Virus record (IMG/VR): IMGVR_UViG_3300001683_000001 | Location: 1 to 64,000 of that record | Source: a virus | Length of the DNA stretch: 64,000 bases | Reading direction: 5' to 3' (one strand) | Shown here: piece after piece, positions 8,511 through 39,184 of the stretch | Layout of the letters: every line of letters begins with the position of its first letter | Numbering within the stretch: position 1 is the first letter of the stretch | Program-made: the position numbers and the translations under genes | Notes under the pieces: generated by a model | The model's input: the letters and a program-made list of their open reading frames with translations, nothing else | Told to the model about the DNA's origin: nothing | Database searches by the model: none

Positions 8511-8785
8511 TGTCCTACGCCTACGACTTCTGACCGGTTGAATCGGTCGCGCCGCCGGACGCTCTCCGGTATCAATCTCGATGGCTCCGGGTGCTGACCG
8601 TATCTCAGGCAGGGTGGAGGACCGATTCAGCCGATTCTGACCCAAATGGAGGCTCATACAGCCCGTCCAACCGGTTAGAGGCCCCGATAGAGCCTGATAT
8701 GGTTCAACGCGCTCTACGGCCCTCTATTCTGAATCGGCATTTTCGACCTGATTTTTCCTGATTCCTGTATTCTCGGCATTACCGA

Positions 8786-8880
8786 ATGTTCCGCAGAACA
8801 TGAGCGAACCTCGCGCGTGGGTGCGCGCGCCCGCGCGTAGGCGGGAGCGCAGGTGAGTGCGAGCGAGTGGGCGACGCTCT
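8786..8880. repeat. bipartite element
   Basis: ATGTTCCGCAGAACAT, 8 bp, CTCGCG. Confidence 0.9.
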
Positions 8881-8889
8881 CGGCGGGGC

Positions 8890-9180
8890 TTACTGTCCGC
8901 CGCCATAATGGAACCACATCTCAATCCAATCGGGGTTGTGAGCGCGGTCCAATCCGTCAAGACACTTCTTGCAGATGCGCCCTGCGGCGAGGGCCTCGTT
9001 CCATCCGTCGAAGTCCATCCTCACGATGCCGTCTTCCCAACCCTCGTTCTCGACCGAAAGGCCGAGGATGTTGCAGGTGTTATCCACTCGGATTGTAGTG
9101 ACTTCGTGAGTGTGGCTCACACCGTAGGAGAAGTGAATCTTCCCCTGTGGGGTGACTTGGTAAAGGAACCTCTCAGACAT
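8890..9180 (-). CDS. hypothetical protein (early cassette 1)
   Basis: GAGGTGG SD; TGAGATG junction. Confidence 0.6.
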   Translation of the reverse strand: MSERFLYQVTPQGKIHFSYGVSHTHEVTTIRVDNTCNILGLSVENEGWEDGIVRMDFDGWNEALAAGRICKKCLDGLDRAHNPDWIEMWFHYGGGQ

Positions 9181-9181
9181 C

Positions 9182-9391
9182 TCAATCCCACCTCATTTCA
9201 AGTGCTTCTCGGAGGGTGTGAAAGACAGCGATAAAATCCCCGTTGGCTTCAATAACCCACCATGTTGCTCCACCTATCGCGGAGCCGAGTTCTCGGTTCT
9301 GCTCGATGGTAGTTTGACCGCTTGCACTCACCCACACACCGGCCTGTGTCGAAGTGAAGGTTCCATAGGTTCCAATCTTGGTCCGGCTCAT
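9182..9391 (-). CDS. hypothetical protein (early cassette 1)
   Basis: GGAGGCGAACTGAGATG junction. Confidence 0.6.
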   Translation of the reverse strand: MSRTKIGTYGTFTSTQAGVWVSASGQTTIEQNRELGSAIGGATWWVIEANGDFIAVFHTLREALEMRWD

Positions 9392-9392
9392 C

Positions 9393-9938
9393 TCAGTTCG
9401 CCTCCAATCCTGTTAGTGTGTCGTCGCTCACCGAGTTATCTACGGTGGTGAAGATTGCTGACTTCCCTACTTGGATTGCCTCGATTGTCTGAGCGACTGT
9501 GTTGATGATGCCAGCCTTTGCCTCGACGATTGCCGCAGGGACGACGCGAGGGCGGAGGGAGTTCCGGTGGAGGGACACAGCGAGAGGGACGGTGACGAAG
9601 CAGACCTCGGTGTTGTAGCCAGCGGCCTCTGCCTTGTCGAGTAGTGCAACCACTCGCTCAAGGTTGGTTCCGGTAGTGTCGTAGAGGACGCTCTCGGTTG
9701 GGTTGGAGAAGACTCCATCCAACATCTCTGCGACTACTGCCTGTGACCATGCGTGGATTGCCTGAGGGTCCTTTGGGTTGTAGTCAGGGTGGGTCTTCTT
9801 GACCTCATCACAGTCGATGCGAGTGAAGGTTGGGAATCGGCGGGAAGCGACTGTGGATTTACCTGCTGCTGGTAGTCCCATCATCACGACGAACTTGCGC
9901 TCGGAGGGGGTCGCCGCCGGTTGCGTCTTGTAGTGCAT
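9393..9938 (-). CDS. P-loop kinase, zeta-toxin/AAA_33-like
   Basis: MGLPAAGKST, IDCDEVK, LYDTTG, RNxxRPRVVP; start set 31 nt from TTCATATA box. Confidence 0.75.
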   Translation of the reverse strand: MHYKTQPAATPSERKFVVMMGLPAAGKSTVASRRFPTFTRIDCDEVKKTHPDYNPKDPQAIHAWSQAVVAEMLDGVFSNPTESVLYDTTGTNLERVVALLDKAEAAGYNTEVCFVTVPLAVSLHRNSLRPRVVPAAIVEAKAGIINTVAQTIEAIQVGKSAIFTTVDNSVSDDTLTGLEAN

Positions 9939-9954
9939 GGCACTACAAGGCAGG

Positions 9955-10026
9955 GGTTCCCTATATGAATGGATAGGGTAAATCAATGCTTTTTACCCTC
10001 AATATCGCATTTTCTGACCACGCCGC
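9955..10026 (-). promoter_or_regulatory. class-I (putative early) ~70-bp promoter, copy 1
   Basis: 32 bp identical to 13097-13128; TTCATATA 31 nt before ATG. Confidence 0.75.
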
Positions 10027-10033
10027 GACCCCT

Positions 10034-10118
10034 CTCGCGTGAGGCGCGGTCGCGGACGCTCGCCCTCGCATGCGCGCGCACCCCCACGCGCGAGAACCGA
10101 CCATGTTCCACAGAACAT
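10034..10118. repeat. bipartite element
   Basis: CGCGAG, 8 bp, ATGTTCCACAGAACAT (10103). Confidence 0.9.
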
Positions 10119-10201
10119 CTCATGGTTCCAATCGGAAGTAGCCACACCGCTTCGGTCAAGAACCTCGTCGCGTCATGGGGTCAAATCACAGAGGTAGCGT
10201 A

Positions 10202-10435
10202 ATGCAGATTCAGGGAGTAGAATTGGAAGTATGGCTTGGGTTGCTGACGGCGGTTCTCGCTCTCGGCATTTGGGCCTTGAAGCGGTATCAGACCGTCATG
10301 GCTGATGGGAAGGTCACGCTGGACGAGGCGATAGATTCGATTGATGAGTCAGAGGCACTCATAGACAAGGTAGTGGGTGAAGCCGAGAAGGTCGAGGACG
10401 CCCTCGACGCGGCTAAGGAGAGCGGCTCGGAGTGA
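10202..10435 (+). CDS. small membrane protein, holin-like
   Basis: N-terminal TM followed by ADGKVTLDE; GAGGT SD. Confidence 0.5.
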   Translation: MQIQGVELEVWLGLLTAVLALGIWALKRYQTVMADGKVTLDEAIDSIDESEALIDKVVGEAEKVEDALDAAKESGSE

Positions 10436-10693: not shown

Positions 10694-10699
10694 GGATGT

Positions 10700-11554
10700 G
10701 TGTCGTTGTCCGAGGATGAAGCAGATTCAATAATCGAGGTCATCAACCTACGCGCTCAGGAACTCCGCGCTCTCGTCATCACCGTCGGGTCTATCTTGGC
10801 CCTTATCCTTCCAGCCGTTGAGATGATTGGGATTCTCGACCTCACCCCCTATGGCGAGGGCGATGATGAGTGGGTCACGGATGATGATTGGGAGTATGAA
10901 TCTGACTTCACCTGTGGGGATGGTTCGACCATTCAAGCATCGCTGGTGAATGACGGCTACAAAAATTGCCGGGACGGGAGTGACGAGCCTCTTGAGCCTG
11001 AACCTGAGCCGGTGCAGAATAATACGACAGTCATCTTGCCTCCGAGTGGTTGCACCGACCCCAATGCGGCGAACTATAACCCCGATGCAGAGGAAGACGA
11101 TGGGACCTGTGAGTATCATGGAGAGGAACCGGTTCTCGGATGCACCGACCCGGAGGCTGAGAACTACGACGACGGGGCCGAGGAAGACGATGGCTCATGC
11201 GTGTATGAGCCGGTCGAGGAATCCGATTGCAGACCTCAGATGTATGATGCCTACTATGACCTTGAGTCCGGCTTCAACGAGTCAGCCAATATGACGATGA
11301 TTTGGGATGCAGACCTGACCTGTGACGAGGCTCATAACCTCACCGTGATTTGGACATTCTACGACAACGCTACCGACGAGTGGGTGGGGATTCAGGAGCA
11401 ATTGGAATACTTGACCTTCGGTATGGATTGGGACTATGTGAATCTCACAATCTACACCGTCCCTGCTGGAACCTACAACATCTATTCCACCTTCTATCTC
11501 GATGTGACCGACACCTACTACATCGGAACCGAATGGTTGGGTGTCGAGGTATGA
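10700..11554 (+). CDS. membrane-anchored acidic protein with an LDLa-like module and two GCTDPxAxNY...DDGxC repeats
   Basis: TM segment; FTCGDG...CRDGSDE; two GCTDP repeats. Confidence 0.7.
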   Translation: MSLSEDEADSIIEVINLRAQELRALVITVGSILALILPAVEMIGILDLTPYGEGDDEWVTDDDWEYESDFTCGDGSTIQASLVNDGYKNCRDGSDEPLEPEPEPVQNNTTVILPPSGCTDPNAANYNPDAEEDDGTCEYHGEEPVLGCTDPEAENYDDGAEEDDGSCVYEPVEESDCRPQMYDAYYDLESGFNESANMTMIWDADLTCDEAHNLTVIWTFYDNATDEWVGIQEQLEYLTFGMDWDYVNLTIYTVPAGTYNIYSTFYLDVTDTYYIGTEWLGVEV

Positions 11555-11726
11555 CGATGGAATCATTCATCCTGATTCTTTTCGCCGGAATCTGCTTCGG
11601 CGTGTGCGTGGATGTCTATCTCGCTCGGAAGGGCTTCTAACGACCCCGATGGAAGCCTATACAGCCCGTCGAAGCGGTTCAAGGCCCCGATAGAGCCTGA
11701 TAGGGTTCGACGCGCTCTGAGGGCGT

Positions 11727-11834
11727 CTATTGTCGGATGGTGATTTTGCCGTGAGCGAGGGCAAGAATCAGGACTACTCCAAGTGGTCCCATCAGGACAA
11801 GACAAGGGAAGACACAGAATGCCGGAATGGACAT
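11727..11834 (-). CDS. 35-aa membrane micropeptide (paralog of 32266-32379)
   Basis: MSIPAFCVFPCLVLMGPLGVVLILALAHGKITIRQ read manually. Confidence 0.6.
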   Translation of the reverse strand: MSIPAFCVFPCLVLMGPLGVVLILALAHGKITIRQ

Positions 11835-11835
11835 C

Positions 11836-12813
11836 TCAGTTCAGCCCCTCGTTGCCGTCCTCGATGTCCTCGGCCATGTCTTGAAGTTCTGCCTCAGTCG
11901 AGATTTGCTTGGTTCGGACATAGCGGTCAATGACTATCTCGCCCATCTTGCTGTTCCTGTTCTGCTTGCCCCATGACTTTGCCTGAGCATCGGTGGCCTT
12001 GAACTTCTTGAATCCGAACTTGGTCACACAGGCGTTCCCGACGAACATCCCGACATGGGTTCCGTCTGCTCGCTGTGCGATTACCGGGAAGGTCGAGGAC
12101 TTGCGGATGGTCTTCGCGCAAGCCTCACAGTCACAGCCGTCGAATCGTGAGGGGAAGGTGGTTCCCTCAGGCCACACAGGGATGTGGAGATTGACCTTCA
12201 CATCGTAGTGCATCTTGCTCACATAGCCGGTGGAATTGTTGGCGTGTTCCCCGGTGTAGCGGTTGTAGCGGAATTGGCCGTTTGCACAGTCCTTGCATGC
12301 CAATGACGAGCGTGTCGTGGTGTAGCCATACTCTGCAACCCTTGAGTCGCGGCCTGACTTCCCCATGAGGAACTTCTTGCGGAGGGAGTGACCCTCGACT
12401 GTTCCGTCCTGAGGTGTGCGAGCGAAGTGGTGGTTGGTCACATCAGGCGAGTCAGCGACCGGCTGGCCGTAGGAGTAGCATTCCTCAATCTCGCGTGGGG
12501 TCTTGCCGTTGTCGCAGTAGGGAGAACCGTCGCTGAAAAAGCGGCTGGTGGGTGTGTTGAGCCATACTTGGAAGTCAGCCTCCACGCCAGCCTCGTTCCA
12601 TGCTTGCATCCATGAAACCCTCTCGGTGTTGTCGGTGCTTCCCTCAGGCAGAAGGTAGTCGTATTGTGTCTTCCTTCCGTAGCATCCTCGACACTCGACA
12701 GGGAGCCTCATGTCCCTGCGAACTGCCCTGACCGTCATTGGGGTGATGCCCCACATCTCAGGTGTCGTGTCTATCTCGGTTATGGTCGTCAAGGTCTTCG
12801 CGCTGTGGCCCAT
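11836..12813 (-). CDS. Zn-binding hypothetical protein (early cassette 2)
   Basis: CRGC, CKDC, CEACAKTI...VGNAC. Confidence 0.7.
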   Translation of the reverse strand: MGHSAKTLTTITEIDTTPEMWGITPMTVRAVRRDMRLPVECRGCYGRKTQYDYLLPEGSTDNTERVSWMQAWNEAGVEADFQVWLNTPTSRFFSDGSPYCDNGKTPREIEECYSYGQPVADSPDVTNHHFARTPQDGTVEGHSLRKKFLMGKSGRDSRVAEYGYTTTRSSLACKDCANGQFRYNRYTGEHANNSTGYVSKMHYDVKVNLHIPVWPEGTTFPSRFDGCDCEACAKTIRKSSTFPVIAQRADGTHVGMFVGNACVTKFGFKKFKATDAQAKSWGKQNRNSKMGEIVIDRYVRTKQISTEAELQDMAEDIEDGNEGLN

Positions 12814-12948
12814 TCAGTTCGCCTCCAATGGTAGCATGATGCGGCATCGACGACTTGGAACGAATGGCATTGGCTCGCTGTCGAAGGCCATCCACTCGTT
12901 CCCGTATTGGTCGGTGTAGTAGCGTCGGTTGATTCCTGTGCTGACCAT
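12814..12948 (-). CDS. 44-aa hypothetical protein (ends LEAN)
   Basis: Read manually; coupled junctions on both sides. Confidence 0.45.
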   Translation of the reverse strand: MVSTGINRRYYTDQYGNEWMAFDSEPMPFVPSRRCRIMLPLEAN

Positions 12949-12949
12949 C

Positions 12950-13045
12950 TCAAATGCCCCCTATTGCTATCATTCGGCACGCACACTCTATGACGGCCAC
13001 AGCCGCCCTTGTTAGGTTTTCGTTGGTTATTATTTGCTGGCTCAT
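12950..13045 (-). CDS. 31-aa leader microprotein of cassette 2
   Basis: ATG 32 nt from TTGATATA box. Confidence 0.45.
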   Translation of the reverse strand: MSQQIITNENLTRAAVAVIECACRMIAIGGI

Positions 13046-13065
13046 AGAGCCAGCAGGGCGGGCAT

Positions 13066-13145
13066 CCCCTATATCAATGAATAGGGTAAATGACTACTTT
13101 TTACCCTCAATATCGCATTTTCTGACCACACCGACGGTCCCTTTC
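13066..13145 (-). promoter_or_regulatory. class-I promoter, copy 2
   Basis: TTGATATA 32 nt before ATG 13045. Confidence 0.75.
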
Positions 13146-13213
13146 GCGAACCCCGCGCCTCGCGCGCACACCTGCGCGCACACGCGAGGATGAGGCCGTG
13201 TTCTGTGGAACAT
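13145..13213. repeat. bipartite element
   Basis: CGCGAG, 9 bp, GTGTTCTGTGGAACAT (13198). Confidence 0.9.
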
Positions 13214-13283
13214 TACTCAAGTAGTCAGTCCAGCACAGGTCGGATAGTCATCGTGAAGAACCGGCGACAGTCCTCCTTCTCCG

Positions 13284-19012: not shown

Positions 19013-19693
19013 ATGGTGACGACAGGTATCACGATGGGGCCACTCATCATTGATGAATCCACAGTCACCTATCTCGACTACTGCACTCTTGCTGATGTGG
19101 AGGCATACGCAGGGGTCAATTTCAGCGATGGGATTGGACCCACAGATGCCGAGATTGGGACGATGATTACCAACGCTTCTCGACTCGTAGATACCTTCGC
19201 CGGAGTTCAGATTGCCGGAACTGTATCAGCCACCGAGTTTTTCGACGCCAACATCTTCCAATCTCACCTCGTTCTCACTCGCAGACCCGTCGCCTCGGTG
19301 ACGAACATTTGGGAGGTTGATGACGCCGGGAGTGAAACGGCGTTGGTGCAGGGCAGGGTTCGGAACACCTCCGACTATTTCCTCCACGACGGGGATGCGG
19401 GAATCGTTCGGTTCATGGGGAACCTTGAGAGGACCGCGAAGGAGTATATCAAAGTCCAATACATCTCAGGCAACACCACTCCACCACCCGAAGCCAAGAT
19501 GGCTACAATCATGCTCGTAGTTCGCAACGCCGCGCGCGCCGCACTCAACGACGAGAACTGCATGGACCGCATCAAGGAGATGTGGTCGCGCTTGCTCAGG
19601 TCAGCCGACGATGATGTGAGTGATATGCTCGCTCTCGTCAAGAATAACGCCCCCGTTGCGGTGGCGACTTTCGGGCTGGATGGGGCATACTGA
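19013..19693 (+). CDS. head-tail adaptor
   Basis: YCTLADV...ASRLVD...PV..V; synteny. Confidence 0.7.
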   Translation: MVTTGITMGPLIIDESTVTYLDYCTLADVEAYAGVNFSDGIGPTDAEIGTMITNASRLVDTFAGVQIAGTVSATEFFDANIFQSHLVLTRRPVASVTNIWEVDDAGSETALVQGRVRNTSDYFLHDGDAGIVRFMGNLERTAKEYIKVQYISGNTTPPPEAKMATIMLVVRNAARAALNDENCMDRIKEMWSRLLRSADDDVSDMLALVKNNAPVAVATFGLDGAY

Positions 19694-20211
19694 TGGCTAT
19701 CACAGACGCAGGTGTCCCGGCCATTGACCCTCACACGATGCTGACGAGTCTGCTGACGAGCAACATGACCTCACCGGATGGAGTATGGACTCCGACCGTC
19801 AATGCAGAATGGCTTGAGTTCAAGAAGCAGAAGACCTACCAAATCGCCATCACACCTCTCTACTCAGCCTCCACCGAGTTCAACCTCACAGGAGGCAACA
19901 GCACAGCCGAGCCACGCATCTCCACAGCATACTACTCCATCACCCTGTTCGCTCCCACTCGCATCAAGGTGTGGGGCCTCTATCAGAAGGCGATGCTCGT
20001 TCTCAACAATCAGACCTTGACCTCTCCGCAATCGGGTGGGACCTACGCTGGTGTGGCCTCGACAGACTACCACTTCGTCAGAGTCATCCGAACCGAGGAA
20101 TCGAAAGCCGTCCGCATCTCCGACCCTGACTGTGGTCCGGGCAAGACCAATGATTCTGATTGTGTAGGCTACCGTGTGGAAATCACAGTAGCCTGTCGCT
20201 GGAATGAGTGA
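19693..20211 (+). CDS. putative tail terminator/completion protein
   Basis: Size and synteny. Confidence 0.45.
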   Translation: MAITDAGVPAIDPHTMLTSLLTSNMTSPDGVWTPTVNAEWLEFKKQKTYQIAITPLYSASTEFNLTGGNSTAEPRISTAYYSITLFAPTRIKVWGLYQKAMLVLNNQTLTSPQSGGTYAGVASTDYHFVRVIRTEESKAVRISDPDCGPGKTNDSDCVGYRVEITVACRWNE

Positions 20212-31112: not shown

Positions 31113-31137
31113 GAAATCAGGCTGGAATCGCACTTTC

Positions 31138-31191
31138 CTCGCGTGTGCGCGCACACCTGCGCGCGAGAGTCGCTCATGTTCTGCGGAACAT
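31138..31191. repeat. bipartite element
   Basis: CTCGCG..CGCGAG, 8 bp, ATGTTCTGCGGAACAT (31176). Confidence 0.9.
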
Positions 31192-31334
31192 TTTAATCAA
31201 AACACAAGAACGGGAGGTCGCCTTGACGGCAAACAGGGACAGCCGAGGCTATGTCCCGAATCATATCGGAGCCGAGCCGAGCCTCGCGCGCGTGAGCGCG
31301 CGTGCGCTTATGCCCGCGTAGTTCGCGCGATGCC

Positions 31335-31414
31335 GAAAGGGACCGTCGGCGTGGTCAGAAAATGCGATATTGAGGTCGAAACCTATTGATTTGCCCTATC
31401 TATTGATATAGGGG
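31335..31414 (+). promoter_or_regulatory. class-I promoter, copy 3
   Basis: GTGGTCAGAAAATGCGATATTGAGG...TTGATATA 32 nt before ATG 31435. Confidence 0.75.
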
Positions 31415-31434
31415 AGGCCGACGCAGGTCATTAC

Positions 31435-32208
31435 ATGACCTGCGAAATGAAGCCGAACAACACTCCAACCAGCCGAGGTTCCGTCGGAGTATGCTACGCT
31501 GCCGACCGCACCGACATCCAAGTCACTCACAGCCTTGAGAGCAACGGATGGAAGCCATGCAAGATGGGAGTCCTTGCGAACTTCTCAGTAGCGGCCCTCA
31601 AGGAACTCGGCCTCTCGACCTACCGCATCAACAGAATCGCAATCAAGTATGTCTTCGTCGAGGCTGGAACACAGACCCGATACGACGAGATTCGGAATGA
31701 GCCATCTTGGCTCGGCCTCTGCATGAATGAGGGCAAGTCACAACACGGCGGGATGGATTGGCATGGGAACAAAATCCCTCAAACTCACTACTTCACCATC
31801 TATGTCCTCACCACCAAGAGGGTCAGGGGAGAGGTCATTCGCCGCCCTCTCAACGAGGTCATGCAGACTATCACTCACGAACTCGTCCATGTGGCTCAGG
31901 GAGCCGAGGACCGCCTTCACTACACCTACTACAACAAGGGCTGGAAGGTTCGCTACACGACCCCATCGGGAACCAGCATGACCTACTATCAGGGAGAGGA
32001 CGAACTCTCATGGGAAGACCGAGGCCATGAGTGGGAGGCCGTCAGCCACCAGCGCGTGACCCTCGCCAACATCCTCAACCCGGACCACGATTCCCTCACC
32101 GTTCGCATCAAGGGCCTCAACCATGAGGACGCAAACAACGGCTGGAATGTTCGCTACAATGAGATGGAGATGTCCTTCAATTACACCGAGATGGAGATGT
32201 CGGCATGA
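31435..32208 (+). CDS. zincin metallopeptidase (early cassette 3)
   Basis: THELVHVAQ...EWEA. Confidence 0.75.
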   Translation: MTCEMKPNNTPTSRGSVGVCYAADRTDIQVTHSLESNGWKPCKMGVLANFSVAALKELGLSTYRINRIAIKYVFVEAGTQTRYDEIRNEPSWLGLCMNEGKSQHGGMDWHGNKIPQTHYFTIYVLTTKRVRGEVIRRPLNEVMQTITHELVHVAQGAEDRLHYTYYNKGWKVRYTTPSGTSMTYYQGEDELSWEDRGHEWEAVSHQRVTLANILNPDHDSLTVRIKGLNHEDANNGWNVRYNEMEMSFNYTEMEMSA

Positions 32209-32265
32209 AGACCGAGAGATTCCTCGACGACCTGACGGCCGAAATCTTCGGGGGGTCGAACTGAG

Positions 32266-32379
32266 ATGAGCGTGCAGATTCCCGCATGGTCTTTCGGCCT
32301 CATGGTGGTTGTGAGTATGCCCTTCGGAATGCTTCTCGTATGGGCCTTCGCTTCCGGCAAAATTACCCTCCGTCAATAG
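32266..32379 (+). CDS. 37-aa membrane micropeptide (paralog of 11727-11834)
   Basis: MSVQIPAWSFGLMVVVSMPFGMLLVWAFASGKITLRQ read manually. Confidence 0.6.
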   Translation: MSVQIPAWSFGLMVVVSMPFGMLLVWAFASGKITLRQ

Positions 32380-32445
32380 ACGCATTCGACGCGCTCTATT
32401 GGCCTCTTTTCGACGAGGGTGAAATGGGTGTTTTCGGGAGGTCCT

Positions 32446-32510
32446 TCGCGCGTGCGCGCGCGTGGGGGTGCGCGAGCGCACGCGAGATTCGCCCATGTTC
32501 CATAGAACAT
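32446..32510. repeat. bipartite element
   Basis: CGCGAG, 8 bp, ATGTTCCATAGAACAT (32495). Confidence 0.9.
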
Positions 32511-32578
32511 TAGTCCGCACTCGGAACCGAAATCACAGCCCAAATGGTGATGACCCTCCGATATTGAGAAGTGAGTGA

Positions 32579-34096
32579 ATGGGCGATTCACTATCCACTC
32601 GACTCTCGATGGAGCAAGCGAAGGAGATAGCCCTCTATCCCGATAGGTGGGCTTGCTTCTTCCGCACCATTGACGGCAAGGAGTTCAGTCTTGCCGAGCG
32701 ACCCTACCTCATTGAGATTTATCGGCACTTCACACCCAAGATGAAAAACAACAAGGCGAAGATAATCCTGTTGAAATGTTCGCGCAAAGTGGAGAAGACC
32801 GAAACCCTCTGCAACATCCTGATGTATGGCCTCCTGAACATCCCCTACTTCAACGCCGTCTATACGGCTCCACGACAGCCGCAGGTCACACGCTTCGTGG
32901 AGGAACGACTCAACGGCGCGCTCATGTCCAGCATCAACGATGGGTGTCTGATGCGACCTCGCATCAAGCAATCTGTGAGCCATCAGACCTTTGATGTCGG
33001 AGCGCGGAACTACAACCACTTCTACGCCTACTCCAATTGGGGTGATGCACACGCTCTGCTCGGCATCGAGGGCGACCTCTGTTGCATAGACGAATATCAG
33101 GACTCAGGTGCGGATGTTCTGCCGATGCTGTTGGAGATATTGGCGATGTCTGATTTCAAGTGGGTGTTGATTAGCGGAACGGCGCGAGAACAGGGGTCGT
33201 CATTTTGGAAATTATGGGAGCAATCCACGAAGGGAGAGTGGGATGGAGAGAAGTGGAGTCACGGTGAGAGCGAGGACGACATCATGGGCTATCACATCAA
33301 CCAATTGATGCACCCCGACATCACACAGGAAGACCTCGATATGAAGAAGCGAACCTACACTCCACGCCGATTCGCTAACGAGGTCATGGGCGAGTTCTTC
33401 GCGGGAGCCACGAAGCCCCTGACCTTCGACGAAGTTCTCGGAACATTGGACAAAGAGCGAGAGGTAGTCAAAGGTGTGAAGCCTCCTGATGAAACCGTGA
33501 TGGGAGTGGATTGGGGCAATCAGACAACGGTGATGATAATGAACGCCGAGGGAGATATTCTCAACGCGGTCAAATTAGACAGTCGTGCTGACCATGATGA
33601 TGACGAGGTGGAGAGAATCAAGGAACTCATCCTCCGCTACAATTGCACTCAGGTTGTGTGCGACATTGGCTTCGGCGCGAGGCAGGTCAAGGAACTCCAA
33701 CGAGAGTTCGGGGAGAGGGTCAAGTCGTGCTACTACTCAAGCCGTCCAATGACCCCCTTTGAATATAAAAAACGGGATAATAATCGGAACCTCATCTTCA
33801 TGTGCGTCGTGGACAGAACATCCTACATCGAGGACACCATCGAGGCCATCAAGAATGGGGAAGTCACAATCCCATACGCTACGACAGAATTGGAGTGGGT
33901 CATCCATGAGTGGACAGCCCTGAACTCGTCAGCGGAGAACGACTTGCTCAACACGCGCCCTGTGCGTGGTCAGACCTTGACTAAGTTCGGCAGGGACGGG
34001 GATGACCACGCCTTCCATGCGTTGCTCTATGCGAGGCTCGCGTTGGGCTTCGTCATGGACTCAGGTCTTCCGCAGATACGAGTCTTCGGAGAATAG
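32579..34096 (+). CDS. terL: terminase large subunit
   Basis: KCSRKVEKTE (Walker A-like), IDEYQ, ISGT, RFANEVMGE, MGVDWG, DDHAFHA. Confidence 0.8.
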   Translation: MGDSLSTRLSMEQAKEIALYPDRWACFFRTIDGKEFSLAERPYLIEIYRHFTPKMKNNKAKIILLKCSRKVEKTETLCNILMYGLLNIPYFNAVYTAPRQPQVTRFVEERLNGALMSSINDGCLMRPRIKQSVSHQTFDVGARNYNHFYAYSNWGDAHALLGIEGDLCCIDEYQDSGADVLPMLLEILAMSDFKWVLISGTAREQGSSFWKLWEQSTKGEWDGEKWSHGESEDDIMGYHINQLMHPDITQEDLDMKKRTYTPRRFANEVMGEFFAGATKPLTFDEVLGTLDKEREVVKGVKPPDETVMGVDWGNQTTVMIMNAEGDILNAVKLDSRADHDDDEVERIKELILRYNCTQVVCDIGFGARQVKELQREFGERVKSCYYSSRPMTPFEYKKRDNNRNLIFMCVVDRTSYIEDTIEAIKNGEVTIPYATTELEWVIHEWTALNSSAENDLLNTRPVRGQTLTKFGRDGDDHAFHALLYARLALGFVMDSGLPQIRVFGE

Positions 34097-34224: not shown

Positions 34225-35964
34225 ATGCCGTTGGTGAAGATTACCATCCCGTCGAAGTCCAATCTACCTGACCTGTGGGAAGACATCCAACCGGACTTCC
34301 CCATGCCGTCACCACGACCATACCAAGCAGAATCACTCTCGGTCATTAAGTGGGCGTTGGACAACGACGACTTCGACAACATCGTCGTCCAAGCACCGAC
34401 CGGCATCGGGAAGTCGGCCATCGCCATGACGATGCAGAAGTGGTTCCAATCGGCATACCTGCTCACTCCGACGCTCGGCCTGACTCAGCAGTATCGTCGT
34501 GACTATGGGAACATGATGAAGGAGGTCAAGGGACGAGCGAACTTCCCCTGTTGGGTGCGAACCGGCGATGCCGCCAACGCTCCCTGTTGGACGAGCAGGG
34601 GAGTCTGTCCTCACACCAAGCGGGATGACCCATGTCCCTACTACGAGCAGAAGTATGAGGCGGCTGACGCGAGGCTCACCCTGTCGAACCCTGCCTACCT
34701 GTTCCGAGTGATTCAGGGCGACACCCTGTTCGACCAGCGGGACTTCGCCATCATTGACGAGGCTCACAACATGGAGCCGTTCCTACTCGACTTGTTTGAG
34801 GTTCGCATAACCCTCAAGGACTACACGATGGTCTTCGGTCCTCGCGCGAACTTCCCCATGCACTACCACCCTGCTGATTGGGTCGAGCCTCTCACCGAGA
34901 TGAGGAAGTCAGCGGAGTTCGGGATAGCGGCGGCAGAGGACAGCGGCGATGATGTCGCGCTCGACAAGTTCCGCGCTCTGCTCGACAAGACCTCGGTTGC
35001 GATTGAACTGCTCAGGAACCCGAACCAAGTGGTCGTCGAGAACGAGAGCGACAGGGCTGGTCGCTATCTGAAAATCAAACCAATCCGAGTCAAGGAAATC
35101 GCCGCTGAACGGTTGGAGCAAATCTCTCGGAAGCGCATCTTCCTATCAGCCACCATCCTCGACATAGACACCTTCCTGAATAACCTCGGATTGGAGTCCC
35201 AACGAACCCTCTATGTGAACATCACACAGTCACCCTTCCCACCTCAGAACTTCAACATCCACATCGCTCCCTGCGGTTCGATGTCCTACGCCAAGCGAGC
35301 CAAATCTCTGCCTCGCCAAATCAACGCCATCGCCGCCATCATGGAACGGTTCCCACACAAACGCGGGGTCATCCTCCCACACAGCCACGCCATCCGCACA
35401 GAGATAGTGGAGAGCCTCAAGGAGAGGGGCTATGGAGATAGGGTCATCACTCACGGCTCAGACCCCAAAGGTCGCAAGGCCGCGCTCCGAGAGTTCTTTG
35501 AGAATCCGGCTGACGACCTCGTTCTCATCAGCACCTATGTCGGGGAGGGATTCGACTTCAAGGGAAGGCTGGCGGAGTGGCTGGTCATCTGCAAGATTCC
35601 CTACCTCCCAATCAAGGGCGATGCCGTCATCGAGATGCGGATGCAAGAGGACGAGCATGAGTGGCGAGCCAAGCATGAAGGCTCTCCCAAGTGTCCCTAC
35701 GAGCCTCCATCGAAATACTCCAACGGCCTCTGTGGTTCCTTCTCCTGTCCGGCTCCCTGCAAGGCGTGGTATCGTCTGCAAACCGCCCTCAAGTTAGTGC
35801 AGGGTGCTGGTCGGATTATCCGAAGCCCGACCGACCGAGGACACCTGTTCATCCTCGATGGTTCTTGGGAGCGATTCGCCCGTCAGAATACGCACCTGTT
35901 CCCGGCGTGGTTCCGCAACGGTATCACCGATTGCCCGGTGTGGTTGAAGCGGCACACGGTTTAG
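34225..35964 (+). CDS. XPD/DinG/Rad3-family SF2 helicase with Fe-S cysteines
   Basis: APTGIGKS, KGRANFPC, CPYY, IIDEAHN, LSAT, QGAGRIIR. Confidence 0.9.
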   Translation: MPLVKITIPSKSNLPDLWEDIQPDFPMPSPRPYQAESLSVIKWALDNDDFDNIVVQAPTGIGKSAIAMTMQKWFQSAYLLTPTLGLTQQYRRDYGNMMKEVKGRANFPCWVRTGDAANAPCWTSRGVCPHTKRDDPCPYYEQKYEAADARLTLSNPAYLFRVIQGDTLFDQRDFAIIDEAHNMEPFLLDLFEVRITLKDYTMVFGPRANFPMHYHPADWVEPLTEMRKSAEFGIAAAEDSGDDVALDKFRALLDKTSVAIELLRNPNQVVVENESDRAGRYLKIKPIRVKEIAAERLEQISRKRIFLSATILDIDTFLNNLGLESQRTLYVNITQSPFPPQNFNIHIAPCGSMSYAKRAKSLPRQINAIAAIMERFPHKRGVILPHSHAIRTEIVESLKERGYGDRVITHGSDPKGRKAALREFFENPADDLVLISTYVGEGFDFKGRLAEWLVICKIPYLPIKGDAVIEMRMQEDEHEWRAKHEGSPKCPYEPPSKYSNGLCGSFSCPAPCKAWYRLQTALKLVQGAGRIIRSPTDRGHLFILDGSWERFARQNTHLFPAWFRNGITDCPVWLKRHTV

Positions 35965-35999
35965 CACAGTTCAAGACGGTGGGGATTGACCATACTTGC

Positions 36000-37157
36000 A
36001 TGAATGCGGGAGTCCTCCAACGACAGGCGGCTCGATGGAAGCGTCAGGCGGATGCTGGCGAAATGCCTGAGGAACTATTCCGAGTCATCGCCAAAGGAAC
36101 CAGCGGGACTGAGAAGCGACAGGTGACTAACCTCGCTCGCGTGTCGAGAATCGTCGCATCCAATGGAACCATCAGACCCTACGACGAGTTCAAGCACGAT
36201 TGGAATTATGAACGCTCCTTTTACGGGACTCACGACACATGCGAACTATGCGGGAAGAACCCCATCGTAGAGAATTGTGTCTTGCTCGACATGGAGGCCG
36301 ACAATCGAATCATCATCGGGAATGTATGCGTCTATCGCTACATGGAAATTGAGGTGGACGGAATCACACTCAAGGGAGAGGACAAAGAGAAGTTTTTGCG
36401 AGAGAACATGAACAGGGCGAAGACCGACCATCGCCGCGCTCAGTTCGCCTCCAATTGGCCCACCATGCTCACCGACCTCAAACGATACGAGGACTTGATG
36501 ACGAGCCGGTATTGGAGCAACGGTAGAAAGACCCCCAAGAGCAAGGAGTGGGAGTCCCTCCATAGGTGTGCTGTGAATCGCATGGCGAAACATGGGTATC
36601 TCGGTCCCAAGATGATAGGGCGATGGGAAGTCTTCATGGAAAATGCCGAGGTCAATCTCAGAGCGTGGAACGAGGAACAGGAAGTGCTGGCCGAGGAACG
36701 AAGGATTCGACATGAGCAAGACCAGCAGAGGCGGAAAAAATTGGCTCAGGAACTCAACCAAAAGCGGAACGAATGGAACGCGCTGGCGGATGAGTGGAAC
36801 GAGAAGGCTCAGGGGGTCGAGCGTGGCTTCAACGATTGGGAGCGACGAATGGTTCCGAAGGTGGTTCAGATGATTCGATATACAGGTCCCGCTACTCTCC
36901 GGGGAGGGTATCTGACTTTCCATGATGAAGTCGTGGCGAAGACCTCACTTCAATCAGGGTCTTACGACAGTTCAAATCCACAGGTCAAGGAACTCCAAGA
37001 GTGGAGTCAAGAGGCTGGCTTCCTCAACGCATGGGAGGCATTGTTCATCGAGTCGGTGACGGTGCGATTGATGTGTGGGCGAGTCCTGTCTGAGAAGCAA
37101 GAGGAAATCGTCAGTAGAATCCGAGCCAAGTGGAAGCATCGGGTGACTCCGGCATGA
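36000..37157 (+). CDS. hypothetical protein with CELCGK...IGNVC Zn motif and C-terminal WE..F....LSEKQ module
   Basis: Start fixed by promoter 35970. Confidence 0.7.
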   Translation: MNAGVLQRQAARWKRQADAGEMPEELFRVIAKGTSGTEKRQVTNLARVSRIVASNGTIRPYDEFKHDWNYERSFYGTHDTCELCGKNPIVENCVLLDMEADNRIIIGNVCVYRYMEIEVDGITLKGEDKEKFLRENMNRAKTDHRRAQFASNWPTMLTDLKRYEDLMTSRYWSNGRKTPKSKEWESLHRCAVNRMAKHGYLGPKMIGRWEVFMENAEVNLRAWNEEQEVLAEERRIRHEQDQQRRKKLAQELNQKRNEWNALADEWNEKAQGVERGFNDWERRMVPKVVQMIRYTGPATLRGGYLTFHDEVVAKTSLQSGSYDSSNPQVKELQEWSQEAGFLNAWEALFIESVTVRLMCGRVLSEKQEEIVSRIRAKWKHRVTPA

Positions 37158-37444
37158 CGAGATTCCTTCTCGACAAGGACATCCCGAAGGCGGTCCTGAC
37201 TCCACACAATCGCAATCTCGGTCAGGTCGCACGCGAGGCTCCTGTCTATGGGATTGCAGTTCTCGATGTCTGTCCCAATCCAAACTGCCGCCGAGATGGT
37301 CCGATGGACGCTCTCATGCTCGGACCTCTGAACCTGTGGCCGAACATGGCGGTGGTCTGTGGCGACGAGGGATGTGGAGTTCATTGGGTGATGGTCGGAG
37401 TGCCGCCTGAGAAGACCCAATGGATTCTGTCCGAAAACGAATGA
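37154..37444 (+). CDS. Zn-ribbon protein
   Basis: CPNPNC...CGDEGC; ATGA overlap. Confidence 0.55.
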   Translation: MTRFLLDKDIPKAVLTPHNRNLGQVAREAPVYGIAVLDVCPNPNCRRDGPMDALMLGPLNLWPNMAVVCGDEGCGVHWVMVGVPPEKTQWILSENE

Positions 37445-37509
37445 CCGTCCGGTGTGCCGACCTCTCAGCGTCACCGGTGACGAGAACTCGGTTCCATACC
37501 GATTTGGGA

Positions 37510-37563
37510 ATGTTCTGTGGAACATGCCCGGTCCTCGCGTGAGCGCATGCGCGCGCGCGTGAG
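37510..37563. repeat. bipartite element
   Basis: ATGTTCTGTGGAACAT, 8 bp, CTCGCG. Confidence 0.9.
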
Positions 37564-37576
37564 GCGCAAGGGACCT

Positions 37577-37645
37577 CGGTGTAGTCAGAAATCGGGTTTT
37601 CAGGCTCCAAAACCATTGATTTACCCTATTCATTGATAAGGGAGA
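37577..37645 (+). promoter_or_regulatory. class-I promoter, copy 4
   Basis: GTAGTCAGAAA...TTGATTTACCCTATTCATTGATAAG 32 nt before ATG 37665. Confidence 0.7.
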
Positions 37646-37664
37646 GGCCCCCCCTGCTCTCGCT

Positions 37665-38060
37665 ATGCGAGAGCAGATTTCAACCCACGCCCTACAAAGA
37701 GCAGACAGCAGACTCGTCGGTGACGAGGCTGAAATCGTGCGCCAAGCGGTGCGCGACGCCATCCGCCGCTACCCCGGCAAGTCCGTCGGAGTCATCGCTC
37801 ACCGACTGAACTCACAGCGCAACGAGGCATGGGGTCAGACCAGCAACGGAGATTGCGTCGTAGCCATCGTCCGAGGCGGCTCGGTGAAGACAATCTACCT
37901 GCGCCGAGCCACACAGACCTTCGACCTCTCCGTCAGCCGCACCGATGTCTTGGTGGATATGACCGGGACTGTCCTCTCCAAGCCCATCGTTGGGCGCGGC
38001 CACCAGCCTCGCCGCAACGACGAGCCAAAGAACATCTTCATCATGAACAGGAGGAACTGA
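37665..38060 (+). CDS. hypothetical protein (early cassette 4)
   Basis: STHALQR...VVAIVRGG; ATG 32 nt from TTGATAAG. Confidence 0.65.
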   Translation: MREQISTHALQRADSRLVGDEAEIVRQAVRDAIRRYPGKSVGVIAHRLNSQRNEAWGQTSNGDCVVAIVRGGSVKTIYLRRATQTFDLSVSRTDVLVDMTGTVLSKPIVGRGHQPRRNDEPKNIFIMNRRN

Positions 38061-38062
38061 AC

Positions 38063-38881
38063 ATGAGCAACACAAACCCCCTCTGCACCTACAACGACAT
38101 GGGTGACTTCGGCAAGCGGGACTACGGCTCGGTGGATGAATACGAAGCCAGCGATTCTTGCCTGACGGTCATTCACAATAGGACGACCTCGACCGGCGAC
38201 CAACCTGCTAACATCGGAGTCCTTGCAGACTACTGTGTGGAGGCGTTCAGGAACCTCGGAATGTCCGAGCGCAGAATCGACGAGCAAGTGATTCGCCTCA
38301 CCTTCCTCCGACAAGCCGACCAAGAGGACTTCAACGAGGAAGCGAACACGGCTGGCGACGAATGGTGTGGGGTGTGTAATTCTTCCCAATTAGGAAGCAT
38401 GACCTTTGAACACCACATCTTCCTAATCACCAACGGAGGTCACGAAGCCAACGACGACGAGATAAACTTGGAAGAAGTCATGCGGTGCTTGACTCACGAA
38501 CTTGTTCATGCCGCACAGGCCGCGAAGGACACCCTCCACTACACATGGTTCCCTGTGAGGGGAGTGTGCAAGATTCGCTTCATGGACGGCAACGGGATTC
38601 AGAAGGCTTGGGACGATGGCGTGGGAAGCCTCGACTACTACGACAGAGCATGGGAGTGGGAGGCATACGCCAAGCAGACCAACCTGATGCTGACCATCTT
38701 CGACACGACCTCTATCCGAATCACGAATCTCGTCGTGGAAAACATCCGCCCCGAAACCCGCGAGGATATGTTCGTGGGAGCATGGAACGCCTTCATCGGA
38801 GGCGAGGTAGTCAGCCAAGCATCTGAGCAGGGACAGTTCCTCCGAACGGCCCTATGCTCCCGCCGCGCCCGTTCTTGCTGA
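38063..38881 (+). CDS. zincin metallopeptidase, paralog of 31435-32208
   Basis: THELVHAAQ..D.LHY...R.WEWEA. Confidence 0.75.
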   Translation: MSNTNPLCTYNDMGDFGKRDYGSVDEYEASDSCLTVIHNRTTSTGDQPANIGVLADYCVEAFRNLGMSERRIDEQVIRLTFLRQADQEDFNEEANTAGDEWCGVCNSSQLGSMTFEHHIFLITNGGHEANDDEINLEEVMRCLTHELVHAAQAAKDTLHYTWFPVRGVCKIRFMDGNGIQKAWDDGVGSLDYYDRAWEWEAYAKQTNLMLTIFDTTSIRITNLVVENIRPETREDMFVGAWNAFIGGEVVSQASEQGQFLRTALCSRRARSC

Positions 38882-39019
38882 TTCCGGGTCAATAGAGGCC
38901 CCATAGAGGCCGTCTGACGCTCAGGACGCCCCGATACAGCCCTAATGCCCTCAACGCGCTCTGCACCCGCTCCCTCGCACTCGCCTCTGCGAGCGCACAT
39001 CTGCGCCCACCCGCCCCTA

Positions 39020-39095
39020 CGCGAGCGCATACCCGCGCGTGCGCGCCCACGCTCGCGCGCACACGCGAGAGAATCGCTCATGTTCCACAGAACAC
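39020..39095. repeat. bipartite element
   Basis: RY tract, CGCGAG, 10 bp, ATGTTCCACAGAACAC (39080). Confidence 0.9.
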
Positions 39096-39184
39096 GACCG
39101 GTTCCGTCACCGGTGACTTTCGGAACCACTCACAACAGACATCGCCCTCTCCTTCAAGACGGTGGGAGTCACACGCTGGTTGGT

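What the first reader, a model, noticed from the sequence alone, without database searches (positions are those of the whole stretch)
8656..39117. Four paralogous 'early' gene cassettes dispersed between core modules and bracketed by the repeat elements
Seen: cassettes 8656-10118 (-), 11657-13213 (-), 31138-32510 (+) and 37470-39117 (+). Each begins with a bipartite element next to the same ~70-bp promoter (32-bp identity at 9989-10020 and 13097-13128; copies 1 and 2 carry an internal AGGGTAAA/TTTACCCT inverted repeat) and each ends with a family-2 repeat, three of them also with another palindrome. Payloads are mixed: cassettes 3 and 4 share a zincin, cassettes 2 and 3 share a terminal micropeptide, and cassettes 1 and 2 share the junction TTGGAGGCGAACTGA. 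Cassettes 1 and 2 are the only minus-strand genes in the window. Inference: a moron-like, repeat-bounded cassette system for host-takeover or anti-defence genes, shuffled by recombination between shared ends, possibly via the encoded Sak4/Cas4-like/SSB module.
Basis: partly seen in the sequence, partly recalled or inferred. Interest (0 to 1): 0.82.

Follow-up and report, generated by a model that had tools for sequence, protein, structure and literature searches.

The report
Promoter-hairpin gene cassettes, marine virus
An uncultured 80-kb marine tailed virus, probably of archaea, carries five small accessory gene units that all start with the same promoter and a hairpin over the start codon. 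Related viruses hold the same units at other places and in other orientations, so this works like the shuffling promoter cassettes known from T4-type phages.

Summary
Four units in the window, plus a fifth outside it at 75399-77101, start with one conserved promoter module of about 115 bp (PROMc). Each module ends in a perfect 7-10 bp palindrome over the start codon. Those of the four window units are the only four hairpins with stems of 9 bp or more in the 80.6-kb genome.

The zincin pair, the shared micropeptide, the shared 15-nt junction and the minus-strand coding are all confirmed.

PROMc with its palindrome is kept in at least five related lineages with GC from 37 to 55%. The stem sequence differs in almost every copy. 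Its payloads (a kinase, a 131-aa protein, a zincin) occupy at least eight different slots and both orientations, while the core genes stay syntenic.

The flanking palindrome/GC and roughly 100-nt repeats are not specific to the units. They mark most operon boundaries in the genome.

Early timing, anti-defence function and the recombination mechanism remain untested.

The closest known systems are the PeSL cassettes of T4-type phages, phage morons, and the shared early promoters of archaeal viruses. Earlier notes from this scan describe comparable promoter-hairpin cassettes on other DNA. My verdict is a new variant of a known kind.

The parts
9918..10028 (-). PROMc copy of cassette 1. The perfect 10-bp palindrome at 9927-9949 contains the ATG of the kinase gene.
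   Evidence: nhmmer E 2e-31; hairpin scan; DNA fold z -4.1
10036..10118 (.). Bipartite element upstream of cassette 1: GC tract 10036-10095 plus palindrome 10103-10118. It lies between the divergent cassette 1 and the plus-strand gene at 10202.
8890..9938 (-). Cassette 1 genes: P-loop kinase (Zeta_toxin/AAA_33 families) 9393-9938, 69-aa ORF 9182-9391, 96-aa ORF 8890-9180.
   Evidence: Pfam E 4e-13 and 1.3e-11; gene calls; AT skew reversed
8620..8849 (.). Distal boundary of cassette 1: family-2 repeat 8620-8738, palindrome 8786-8801, GC tract 8808-8849. The palindrome/GC pair is inverted relative to the one at 10036-10118.
   Evidence: (I15)
13023..13137 (-). PROMc copy of cassette 2. Palindrome 13035-13055 contains an ATG.
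   Evidence: nhmmer E 4e-34
13144..13213 (.). Bipartite element upstream of cassette 2: GC tract 13144-13179 plus palindrome 13198-13213 (one mismatch). It is divergent from the portal gene.
11727..13045 (-). Cassette 2 genes: 31-aa ORF 12950-13045, 44-aa ORF 12814-12948, Cys-rich 325-aa protein 11836-12813, 35-aa membrane micropeptide 11727-11834.
   Evidence: The 325-aa protein has 39-43% identical homologues on related virus contigs.
11625..11741 (+). Family-2 repeat at the distal end of cassette 2. It overlaps the last codons of the micropeptide and also follows the plus-strand gene ending at 11640.
   Evidence: nhmmer E 7e-25
31140..31308 (.). Elements upstream of cassette 3: GC tract plus palindrome 31176-31191, and a second GC tract 31269-31308.
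   Evidence: (D4, I11)
31343..31457 (+). PROMc copy of cassette 3. Palindrome 31422-31444 contains the ATG of the zincin gene.
   Evidence: nhmmer E 3e-32
31435..32379 (+). Cassette 3 genes: HExxH zincin 31435-32208 and 37-aa membrane micropeptide 32266-32379.
   Evidence: Weak WLM and PHROG matches; paralogy to 38063-38881; micropeptide
32376..32510 (.). Distal boundary of cassette 3: partial family-2 copy 32376-32416, GC tract 32443-32484, palindrome 32495-32510. The relocated terminase gene (32609-34096) follows.
37470..37572 (.). Left flank of cassette 4: 12-nt palindrome 37470-37481, palindrome 37510-37525, GC tract 37536-37572. The stretch 37508-37564 is identical, inverted, to 45030-45086.
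   Evidence: (I5)
37573..37687 (+). PROMc copy of cassette 4. Palindrome 37654-37676 contains the ATG of the 131-aa gene.
   Evidence: nhmmer E 1e-30; (z -5.9)
37665..38881 (+). Cassette 4 genes: conserved 131-aa protein 37665-38060 (the commonest PROMc payload in relatives) and HExxH zincin 38063-38881.
38868..39166 (.). Right flank of cassette 4: family-2 repeat 38868-38984, GC tract 39025-39067, palindrome 39080-39095, 12-nt palindrome near 39106, and the second-class promoter motif 39153-39166 that restarts the core operon at 39185.

Best explanation
The four window cassettes, and a fifth at 75.4-77.1 kb, are autonomous accessory transcription units. Each is headed by one conserved regulatory module, PROMc.

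What PROMc contains:
- about 70 bp of conserved upstream sequence;
- a TATA-like box (ATTGATATAGGGG type);
- 20-25 nt further on, a perfect short palindrome that holds the start codon.

The start codon sits 31-34 nt from the start of the box in 13 of 14 copies; in the 14th the palindrome holds no ATG. That spacing fits an archaeal-type promoter whose mRNA begins at or next to the ATG, that is, a leaderless mRNA. Internal genes are instead coupled through GGAGG-stop-start junctions.

A second promoter class (TTCAAGACGGTGGG, with the ATG 30-32 nt downstream) heads the core operons.

Over evolutionary time the PROMc units have been moved, inverted and re-loaded with different genes at operon boundaries. 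The most likely route is homologous or short-homology recombination between the dispersed promoter copies and the other intergenic repeats. This is the mechanism shown experimentally for the promoter-early stem-loop (PeSL) cassettes of T4-type phages.

Shown here: the repeats, the fixed geometry, the structure-conserved but sequence-variable palindrome, the accessory nature of the payloads, and their different slots and orientations in relatives.

Inferred: promoter activity, leaderless starts, an archaeal host, and recombination at the repeats.

Least certain is the role of the palindrome. My preferred guess, at about 30%, is a DNA-level hairpin or cruciform at the initiation site that makes the promoter depend on DNA topology or on a structure-binding factor. 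The alternative is a PeSL-like barrier to incoming transcription.
For: Promoter and palindrome within G000:
- Five PROMc copies.
- The only four perfect hairpins in 80.6 kb with a stem of 9 bp or more and a 2-4 nt loop are the PROMc start codons. Shuffled genomes give 0-5.
- All five copies fold with z -3.7 to -5.9.

Conservation in relatives:
- 14 copies across G000 and at least five related lineages keep perfect 7-11 bp stems, of different sequence in all but two copies, at a fixed distance from the box.
- PROMc is detected in relatives with GC from 37% to 55%, at E 1e-12 to 1e-21.
- Distant lineages keep the box-to-ATG spacing without the hairpin.

Second promoter class: 13 copies, all on the plus strand, with the ATG 30-32 nt downstream in 11 of them. 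It is conserved in G006.

Accessory and mobile payloads:
- The payload genes are absent from distant relatives, while the flanking core genes stay syntenic.
- The kinase is minus-strand in the old terminase slot in G000. It is plus-strand upstream of the clamp loader in G006 and after the tail genes in L140.
- The 131-aa gene occupies at least six slots.
- The zincin is plus-strand twice in G000 and inverted after the helicase in the G006 lineage.
- Near-identical G006-lineage genomes differ by 0, a 43-aa gene or a 270-aa gene inside one cassette.
- An exact 57-nt inverted identity lies between two dispersed elements.

Host and precedent:
- XPD-like helicase, XPF-like ERCC4-HhH2 nuclease, family B polymerase, clamp loader and prim-pol fit an archaeal-type virus. 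The polymerase's best named relatives are haloarchaeal tailed viruses.
- Precedents: PeSLs (PMC2839356), promoter-bearing intergenic repeats of halovirus HF2 (PMC8707807), and shared regulatory sequences of early anti-defence genes in archaeal viruses (PMC11065993).
Against: - There are no transcript data, so promoter activity, start sites and timing are all inferred.
- The closest genomes I could fetch share only about 65-75% protein identity. No breakpoint can be placed on a repeat at base-pair level.
- Operon boundaries are the only places where rearrangements are tolerated, so coincidence with intergenic repeats is expected anyway.
- The one fine-scale indel I could resolve (G006 lineage) is bounded by a gene end and the second-class promoter, not by PROMc.
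- PROMc copies do not cluster cleanly by genome or by payload, so neither concerted evolution nor co-transfer of promoter and payload is demonstrated.
- Terminase lies downstream of this promoter type in G000 and G006, which argues against a purely early or anti-defence regulon.
- The cassettes show no compositional anomaly.
- Host domain is not proven. The capsid and portal proteins' nearest named relatives are bacterial phages.
- G000 is a metagenome assembly, so its large-scale gene order is not independently verified.
Confidence: 0.6

Rival explanations
1. The repeats are purely regulatory. PROMc, the palindrome/GC elements and the family-2 repeats are promoters, operators and terminators found at every operon boundary. 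The cassettes are ordinary lineage-specific accessory operons that moved by generic illegitimate recombination at gene boundaries. The repeats play no part in that mobility.
For: - The elements occupy 25 of 42 intergenic gaps, not only cassette borders.
- In G006 the palindrome is mostly inside genes (25 of 34 copies), and cassettes are inserted tightly without GC tracts or family-2 repeats.
- The resolved indel in the G006 lineage has no PROMc at its borders.
- Family-2 copies have no common fold.
Against: - An exact 57-nt identity between two dispersed elements stands out in a family that is otherwise 70-87% similar.
- PROMc travels with different payloads, and the same payload is found behind PROMc at many slots.
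- G000 cassette 2 and the 131-aa cassette of L140 share the same hairpin and first codons but have different genes downstream.
Confidence: 0.25
2. The cassettes are non-autonomous, transposon-like elements. Cassettes 1 and 4 have terminal inverted repeats (palindrome plus GC tract, and for cassette 4 also a 12-nt palindrome). They would be mobilised in trans by an unidentified transposase or structure-specific nuclease.
For: Cassettes 1 and 4 are each flanked by inverted composite repeats of 58 to about 100 nt at roughly 70-75% identity.
Against: - No transposase or integrase was found among the genes scanned.
- No target-site duplication is visible.
- Cassette 3 has direct flanks, not inverted ones. 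Cassette 2 has the bipartite element on one side only. Cassette 5 has none.
- The same elements occur all over the genome in both orientations, so inverted pairs arise by chance about half the time.
- Relatives use different palindromes.
Confidence: 0.05
3. The unusual gene order of G000 (terminase moved, replication blocks swapped, cassettes at odd places) is a metagenome mis-assembly across repeats.
For: G000 is a metagenome-assembled record that contains exact repeats of 32 and 57 nt. Only G000 has terminase away from the portal gene.
Against: - Most repeat copies are only 65-87% alike, too divergent to confuse an assembler.
- Independent contigs carry the 131-aa and zincin pair (88% and 69% identical, on the same 16.6-kb contig) and the 325-aa gene (99% identical).
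- All core genes keep the plus orientation.
- Relatives from many samples show their own different cassette placements.
Confidence: 0.03
4. The host is a bacterium. The module would then be a bacterial promoter with a 5' untranslated hairpin, not an archaeal leaderless promoter.
For: Portal and capsid proteins have their nearest named relatives among bacterial phages. GGAGG junctions are also used in bacteria.
Against: - The sequence directly upstream of the ATG is the variable hairpin arm, so there is no conserved -10 box where a bacterial leaderless promoter needs one.
- About 25 first genes have the ATG at a fixed 30-34 nt from an A/T-rich box and no ribosome-binding site, while internal genes do have one.
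- The virus encodes XPD-like and XPF-like (ERCC4-HhH2) proteins, and its family B polymerase is nearest to those of haloarchaeal viruses.
Confidence: 0.1

Closest known systems
PeSL (promoter-early stem-loop) regulatory cassettes of T4-type phages RB49/phi1 (Arbiol et al. 2010, PMC2839356)
   Same: Both are a repeated intergenic module made of a strong host-type promoter plus a stem-loop. In PeSLs the stem-loop can lie just before the initiation site. Both sit mainly in front of non-essential ORFan genes and next to unusually plastic known genes. Both are associated with insertion, deletion, replacement and reshuffling between related genomes.
   Different: Here the promoter has archaeal TATA geometry with apparently leaderless mRNAs, not sigma-70 boxes plus Shine-Dalgarno. 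The stem-loop is a perfect palindrome centred on the start codon, and it co-varies with the first codons. There are only 3-5 copies per genome rather than about 50, and they are scattered between core modules rather than concentrated in hyperplastic regions. Units are often multi-gene and in either orientation. Mini-circles and terminator activity are untested.
Morons of lambdoid and other tailed phages
   Same: Both are extra transcription units with their own promoter, inserted between conserved core genes and present in some genomes but absent from relatives.
   Different: Morons do not share a common promoter module, and they usually differ in base composition from their surroundings. Here all units share one conserved module and match the genome's composition. 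A dedicated terminator is not shown.
Intergenic repeats of halovirus HF2 that carry promoters (Russ, Pfeiffer, Dyall-Smith 2021, PMC8707807)
   Same: HF2 is an archaeal tailed virus with two classes of multi-copy intergenic repeats containing TATA/BRE promoters with experimentally mapped start sites. One copy (IR4.5) has a 9-bp inverted repeat in place of the start-site motif.
   Different: In Haloferacalesvirus the repeats and their genomic positions are strongly conserved across the genus, whereas here the positions vary. No structure-conserved, sequence-variable palindrome over the start codon is described there. There is no detectable sequence relationship.
Conserved regulatory sequences of early anti-defence genes in archaeal viruses (Nat Commun 2024, PMC11065993)
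   Same: [quoted passage not shown] This is read there as an early anti-defence regulon.
   Different: That system is described for Sulfolobales viruses and is mostly single small genes near genome termini. Timing and anti-defence function were shown there but are untested here. Here terminase also lies downstream of this promoter type.
Hairpin early promoters of phage N4, and integron attC sites
   Same: Both are DNA signals in which a short hairpin is conserved as a structure rather than as a sequence. N4 promoters have a 5-7 bp stem and a 3-nt loop. This rests on my own knowledge, not on a paper read here.
   Different: N4 hairpins lie upstream of the start site and are read by a virion RNA polymerase. 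attC sites lie at the 3' ends of promoterless cassettes and need an integrase. No such polymerase or integrase was found here, and a normal TATA-like box is present.

Membership tests
PeSL-type mobile regulatory cassettes | Repeated intergenic motif containing a strong host-type promoter | tested here: inconclusive
   The repeat and the fixed TATA-like geometry are shown. Promoter activity was not measured.
PeSL-type mobile regulatory cassettes | A stable stem-loop is part of the motif | tested here: met
   Perfect 7-11 bp stems in 14 copies. They are the only such hairpins in the genome. Fold z -3.7 to -5.9.
PeSL-type mobile regulatory cassettes | Sits preferentially upstream of non-essential or ORFan genes and plastic loci | tested here: met
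   The payloads are absent from distant relatives and mostly lack a family match. Terminase and the clamp loader, next to PROMc, are the relocated core genes.
PeSL-type mobile regulatory cassettes | Indels and replacements between related genomes have the motif at their borders | tested here: inconclusive
   Units differ in slot, orientation and payload. However, the relatives are too distant for exact breakpoints, and the one resolved indel is bounded by a gene end and the other promoter class.
PeSL-type mobile regulatory cassettes | Sigma-70 promoter in a T4-type phage; circular by-products of recombination between motifs | tested here: not met
   The geometry is archaeal-type and leaderless, and the virus is not T4-like. 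Mini-circles cannot be tested with these tools. So this works like a PeSL but is not a member in the strict sense.
Phage morons | Present or absent between conserved flanking genes in related genomes | tested here: met
Phage morons | Own promoter and own terminator | not testable with these tools
   A promoter is inferred from sequence. No oligo-T terminator is evident, and family-2 repeats have no common fold.
Phage morons | Base composition differs from the neighbouring genes | tested here: not met
   Cassette GC is 0.53-0.60 against a genome value of 0.56.
Early anti-defence regulon of archaeal viruses | Shared conserved regulatory sequence around a TATA/BRE core in front of diverse accessory genes | tested here: met
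Early anti-defence regulon of archaeal viruses | Immediate-early transcription and inhibition of host defence | not testable with these tools
   No transcript or functional data are available. PADLOC gave no match, but it holds defence-system models, not anti-defence ones.
Transposon or MITE-like element | Terminal inverted repeats, target-site duplication and a cognate transposase | tested here: not met
   Inverted flanks occur only at cassettes 1 and 4. No duplication and no transposase were found.

The most novel reading that the evidence does not exclude
The start-codon palindrome is a structure-specific DNA signal, not an RNA element or a sequence-specific operator. It would extrude as a hairpin or cruciform exactly at the initiation site. 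That would make this promoter class depend on supercoiling or on a structure-binding viral protein. The virus encodes XPF-like and XPD-like enzymes. The result would be an N4-like 'hairpin promoter' logic in an archaeal virus. The same structure could mark the crossover point at which promoter modules are joined to new payloads. That would explain why perfect complementarity to each payload's first codons is always restored.
Probability: 0.15. Interest if true: 0.85.

Novelty: new variant of a known kind. Interest (0 to 1): 0.62.

Why it matters
Viruses of marine planktonic archaea are known only from metagenomes, and nothing is known about how they control their genes. This locus gives two candidate promoter classes with fixed leaderless geometry, conserved across lineages whose GC content ranges from 37 to 56%. 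It gives a defined set of accessory genes behind one of them. It also gives comparative evidence that these promoter-led units, and even terminase and the clamp-loader gene next to them, are relocated between related viruses.

This extends the 'mobile regulatory cassette' idea from T4-type phages to an archaeal-type virus. It also supplies a ready handle, the PROMc motif, for finding accessory or counter-defence genes in this group.

The structure-conserved, sequence-variable palindrome over the start codon is a clean feature with no established explanation. It can be tested directly.

Tried and rejected
Searches for relatives:
- Nucleotide search of the phage collection found nothing.
- The portal-based locus search found nothing.
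- The exact-palindrome scan of viral contigs gave only single chance hits.
- The terminase scan of metagenome contigs gave no relative closer than about 76-79%.
I therefore could not fetch the closest relatives: the 16.6-kb ENA contig carrying the 131-aa gene (88% identical) and the zincin (69%), and the 3.7-kb contig carrying the 325-aa gene (99%).

Payload function:
- The 131-aa protein gave a moderate model (pLDDT 70). Its only matches were weak: Foldseek E 0.2 or worse, and VIA Z of at most 6.1 to type III pantothenate kinase and Z 4-5 to RelE/ParE-type toxins. I treat this as inconclusive.
- The zincin model was unusable (pLDDT 40).
- PDB sequence searches were empty or gave only chance-level rows.
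- The protein atlas gave only unnamed viral clusters.

Other checks:
- Rfam found no family in the window, and there are no tRNAs.
- A formal pair count on an alignment of the hairpins was abandoned. MAFFT aligns the copies on the ATG, and the palindrome centre sits in two registers 2 nt apart. I used the direct hairpin scans instead.
- An identity matrix of PROMc copies showed no clean clustering by genome or by payload.
- I rejected start-codon masking in read-through RNA as the main role of the hairpin. The hairpin is kept equally in divergent contexts, where no co-directional upstream operon exists (cassettes 1, 2 and 5, G006b, L128a).

Full report
**What the record is.** The window is the first 64 kb of an 80,646-bp IMG/VR virus record with direct terminal repeats, estimated complete.
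- It encodes a tailed-virus structural module: portal, prohead protease, HK97-type capsid, tape measure and terminase.
- Its replication set is a family B polymerase, a clamp-loader ATPase, a prim-pol, a PD-(D/E)XK exonuclease, an XPD-like helicase and an ERCC4-HhH2 (XPF-like) nuclease.
- The polymerase's nearest named relatives are haloarchaeal tailed viruses. Relatives come from marine and Tara samples.
- I treat an archaeal host as likely but inferred.

**Checking the observation.** Repeat finding and a profile search confirm four copies of one promoter-like element, at 9918-10028(-), 13023-13137(-), 31343-31457(+) and 37573-37687(+).
- Each copy points into a short gene group.
- A fifth, diverged copy at 76997-77101(-) heads four minus-strand genes just outside the window.
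- Every well-supported minus-strand gene group in the genome (cassettes 1, 2 and 5) is driven by this element. The only other minus-strand call of comparable score, an 80-aa ORF at 72841-83 outside the window, has no PROMc copy.
- AT skew reverses over the two minus-strand cassettes in the window.
- The exact 32-nt identity, the 15-nt junction, the zincin paralogy (32% identity, E 2e-26, invariant HExxH) and the shared 35/37-aa membrane micropeptide are all confirmed.
- The junction is simply a GGAGG ribosome-binding site, a stop codon and the next start codon. It recurs at the end of a cassette-5 gene.

Each promoter copy ends in a perfect palindrome with a 3-nt loop that contains the ATG.
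- The stems are 9-10 bp in the four window copies and 7 bp in cassette 5.
- The whole genome contains only four perfect hairpins with stems of 9 bp or more and 2-4 nt loops, and they are exactly these four sites. Shuffled genomes give 0-5.
- All five copies fold far better than shuffles, with z -3.7 to -5.9.
- The stem sequences are all different. The 5' arm is the complement of each payload's first codons.

**The repeats are genome-wide.** The palindrome-plus-GC-tract element has 27 palindrome copies within one mismatch. The roughly 100-nt family-2 repeat has about 12 copies, in both orientations.
- A third motif, TTCAAGACGGTGGG, has 13 copies, all on the plus strand.
- Together these occupy 25 of the 42 intergenic gaps of 50 bp or more. 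Bracketing by repeats is therefore true but not specific to the cassettes.
- The third motif has the ATG 30-32 nt downstream in 11 of its 13 copies and is conserved in relatives. It looks like a second leaderless promoter class, used by core operons.
- Family-2 copies have no common fold.

**Relatives.**
- Distant relatives (G001-G005, terminase 70-76% identical) lack almost all cassette genes, while the flanking core genes stay in order. They use different palindromes.
- A scan for the promoter core found closer relatives: G006-G010, L128, L140 and L177.
- These relatives keep PROMc at E 1e-12 to 1e-21 even though their GC content ranges from 37 to 55%.
- They also keep the palindrome at the same distance from the TATA-like box, again with different stem sequences: 14 copies with stems of 7-11 bp.
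- More distant lineages keep the box-to-ATG spacing but have no hairpin.

**Cassette positions differ between relatives.**
- Kinase: minus-strand in the slot between the 7024 gene and the 10202 gene in G000; plus-strand between the nuclease gene and the clamp loader in G006; plus-strand after the tail genes in L140.
- 131-aa protein: found behind PROMc, or behind a weaker or undetectable version of it in the most distant lineages, in at least six slots and in either orientation.
- Zincin: inverted after the helicase in the G006 lineage, but plus-strand at two other slots in G000.
- Near-identical G006-lineage genomes differ by nothing, a 43-aa gene or a 270-aa gene inside one cassette.
- Terminase: next to the portal gene in every related contig where the context is visible, and inverted in place in the G006 lineage behind a PROMc-like promoter. 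Only in G000 has it moved next to cassette 3, and cassette 1 now sits in its old slot.
- An exact 57-nt inverted identity links the head of cassette 4 to the element upstream of the clamp loader.

**Interpretation.** The units behave like the PeSL cassettes of T4-type phages: a promoter plus stem-loop in front of plastic accessory genes, with recombination between copies reshuffling the genome (PMC2839356).
- They also resemble morons, the promoter-bearing intergenic repeats of halovirus HF2 (PMC8707807), and the shared early regulatory sequences of accessory genes in Sulfolobales viruses (PMC11065993).
- Three things differ here: the archaeal-type leaderless geometry, the perfect palindrome centred on the start codon, and the scattering of a few copies between core modules.

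**What remains open.**
- Timing, function and the recombination mechanism are untested.
- Payloads are a Zeta/AAA_33-type kinase, two HExxH zincins, a conserved 131-aa protein of unresolved fold, a Cys-rich 325-aa protein and small membrane peptides.
- The hairpin is kept in divergent contexts too, where no upstream operon runs in the same direction. This argues for a promoter-intrinsic role, probably at the DNA level, rather than masking of read-through RNA.

**Earlier notes of this scan.** Notes on this genome describe the genome-wide palindrome, the family-2 repeat and the 12-nt palindrome. I re-derived the parts I use.
- Notes on other genomes describe comparable leaderless promoter-hairpin cassettes in bacterial phages and CPR bacteria. 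They led me to the PeSL paper, which I read myself.

Noticed in passing
window 4929-52984 (13 copies, e.g. 21247, 34194, 39153, 45142, 46583, 52971); G006 (L091-L093): A second repeated motif, TTCAAGACGGTGGG, occurs 13 times, all on the plus strand. The ATG lies 30-32 nt downstream in 11 of the 13 copies, in front of core genes. It is conserved as TTCATAACGGTGGGA in relatives with 38% GC. It looks like a second leaderless promoter class.
   Followed up: partly
window 32609-34096, compared with relatives G001-G006 and L155-L172: The large terminase gene sits between the 7024-type gene and the portal gene in every relative whose context is visible, and it is inverted in place in the G006 lineage. 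Only in this genome has it moved about 20 kb, to behind the tail genes. Cassette 1 now occupies its old slot.
   Followed up: partly
window 37508-37564 and 45030-45086: These two stretches are an exact 57-nt inverted repeat, in a repeat family that is otherwise 70-87% similar. Recombination between them would invert 7.5 kb holding cassette 4 and five replication genes.
   Followed up: partly
whole genomes G000-G010, L140: Each lineage has its own 5-4-5 palindrome: TGTTC/GAACA here, and TGTTG, TGTCG, GGTCC, TATTG or TACTG half-sites in relatives. In G006, 25 of the 34 copies lie inside genes. A copy lies within about 60 nt of a boundary of each of the three G006 cassettes.
   Followed up: partly
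window 36440-36454 (minus strand): A third exact copy of the 15-nt junction TTGGAGGCGAACTGA lies antisense inside the well-supported plus-strand gene 35940-37157. A third copy is not expected by chance and it is unexplained.
   Followed up: no
window 55229-56071 and 34225-35964: An ERCC4 plus helix-hairpin-helix (XPF/Hef-like) structure-specific nuclease and an XPD-like helicase are encoded by the virus. These are archaeal/eukaryotic-type repair proteins that could act on branched or hairpin DNA.
   Followed up: no
window 11625-11741 and 32376-32416: One end of the family-2 repeat overlaps the last codons and the stop codon of the shared micropeptide gene, with 29 nt at 90% identity between cassettes 2 and 3. 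The micropeptide gene may therefore be part of a longer form of that repeat.
   Followed up: partly
L091 (G006) 19105-19917, compared with L119 and L113: Genomes 95-99% identical in this region differ by one gene inside a PROMc cassette. The variants are nothing, a 43-aa ORF or a 270-aa zinc-ribbon protein. The breakpoints lie at the stop codon of the 131-aa gene and at the second-class promoter motif.
   Followed up: yes
window 10706-11554: A very acidic 282-aa protein between cassettes 1 and 2 carries an LDL-receptor class A domain (Pfam E 7.5e-6). This is unusual in a prokaryotic virus.
   Followed up: no
L154 11399-13101 (genome 75399-77101): The fifth PROMc cassette lies outside the window and has four minus-strand genes of unknown function. 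Its 73-aa zinc-ribbon gene has a 62% identical homologue in plus orientation inside the replication module of G006.
   Followed up: partly
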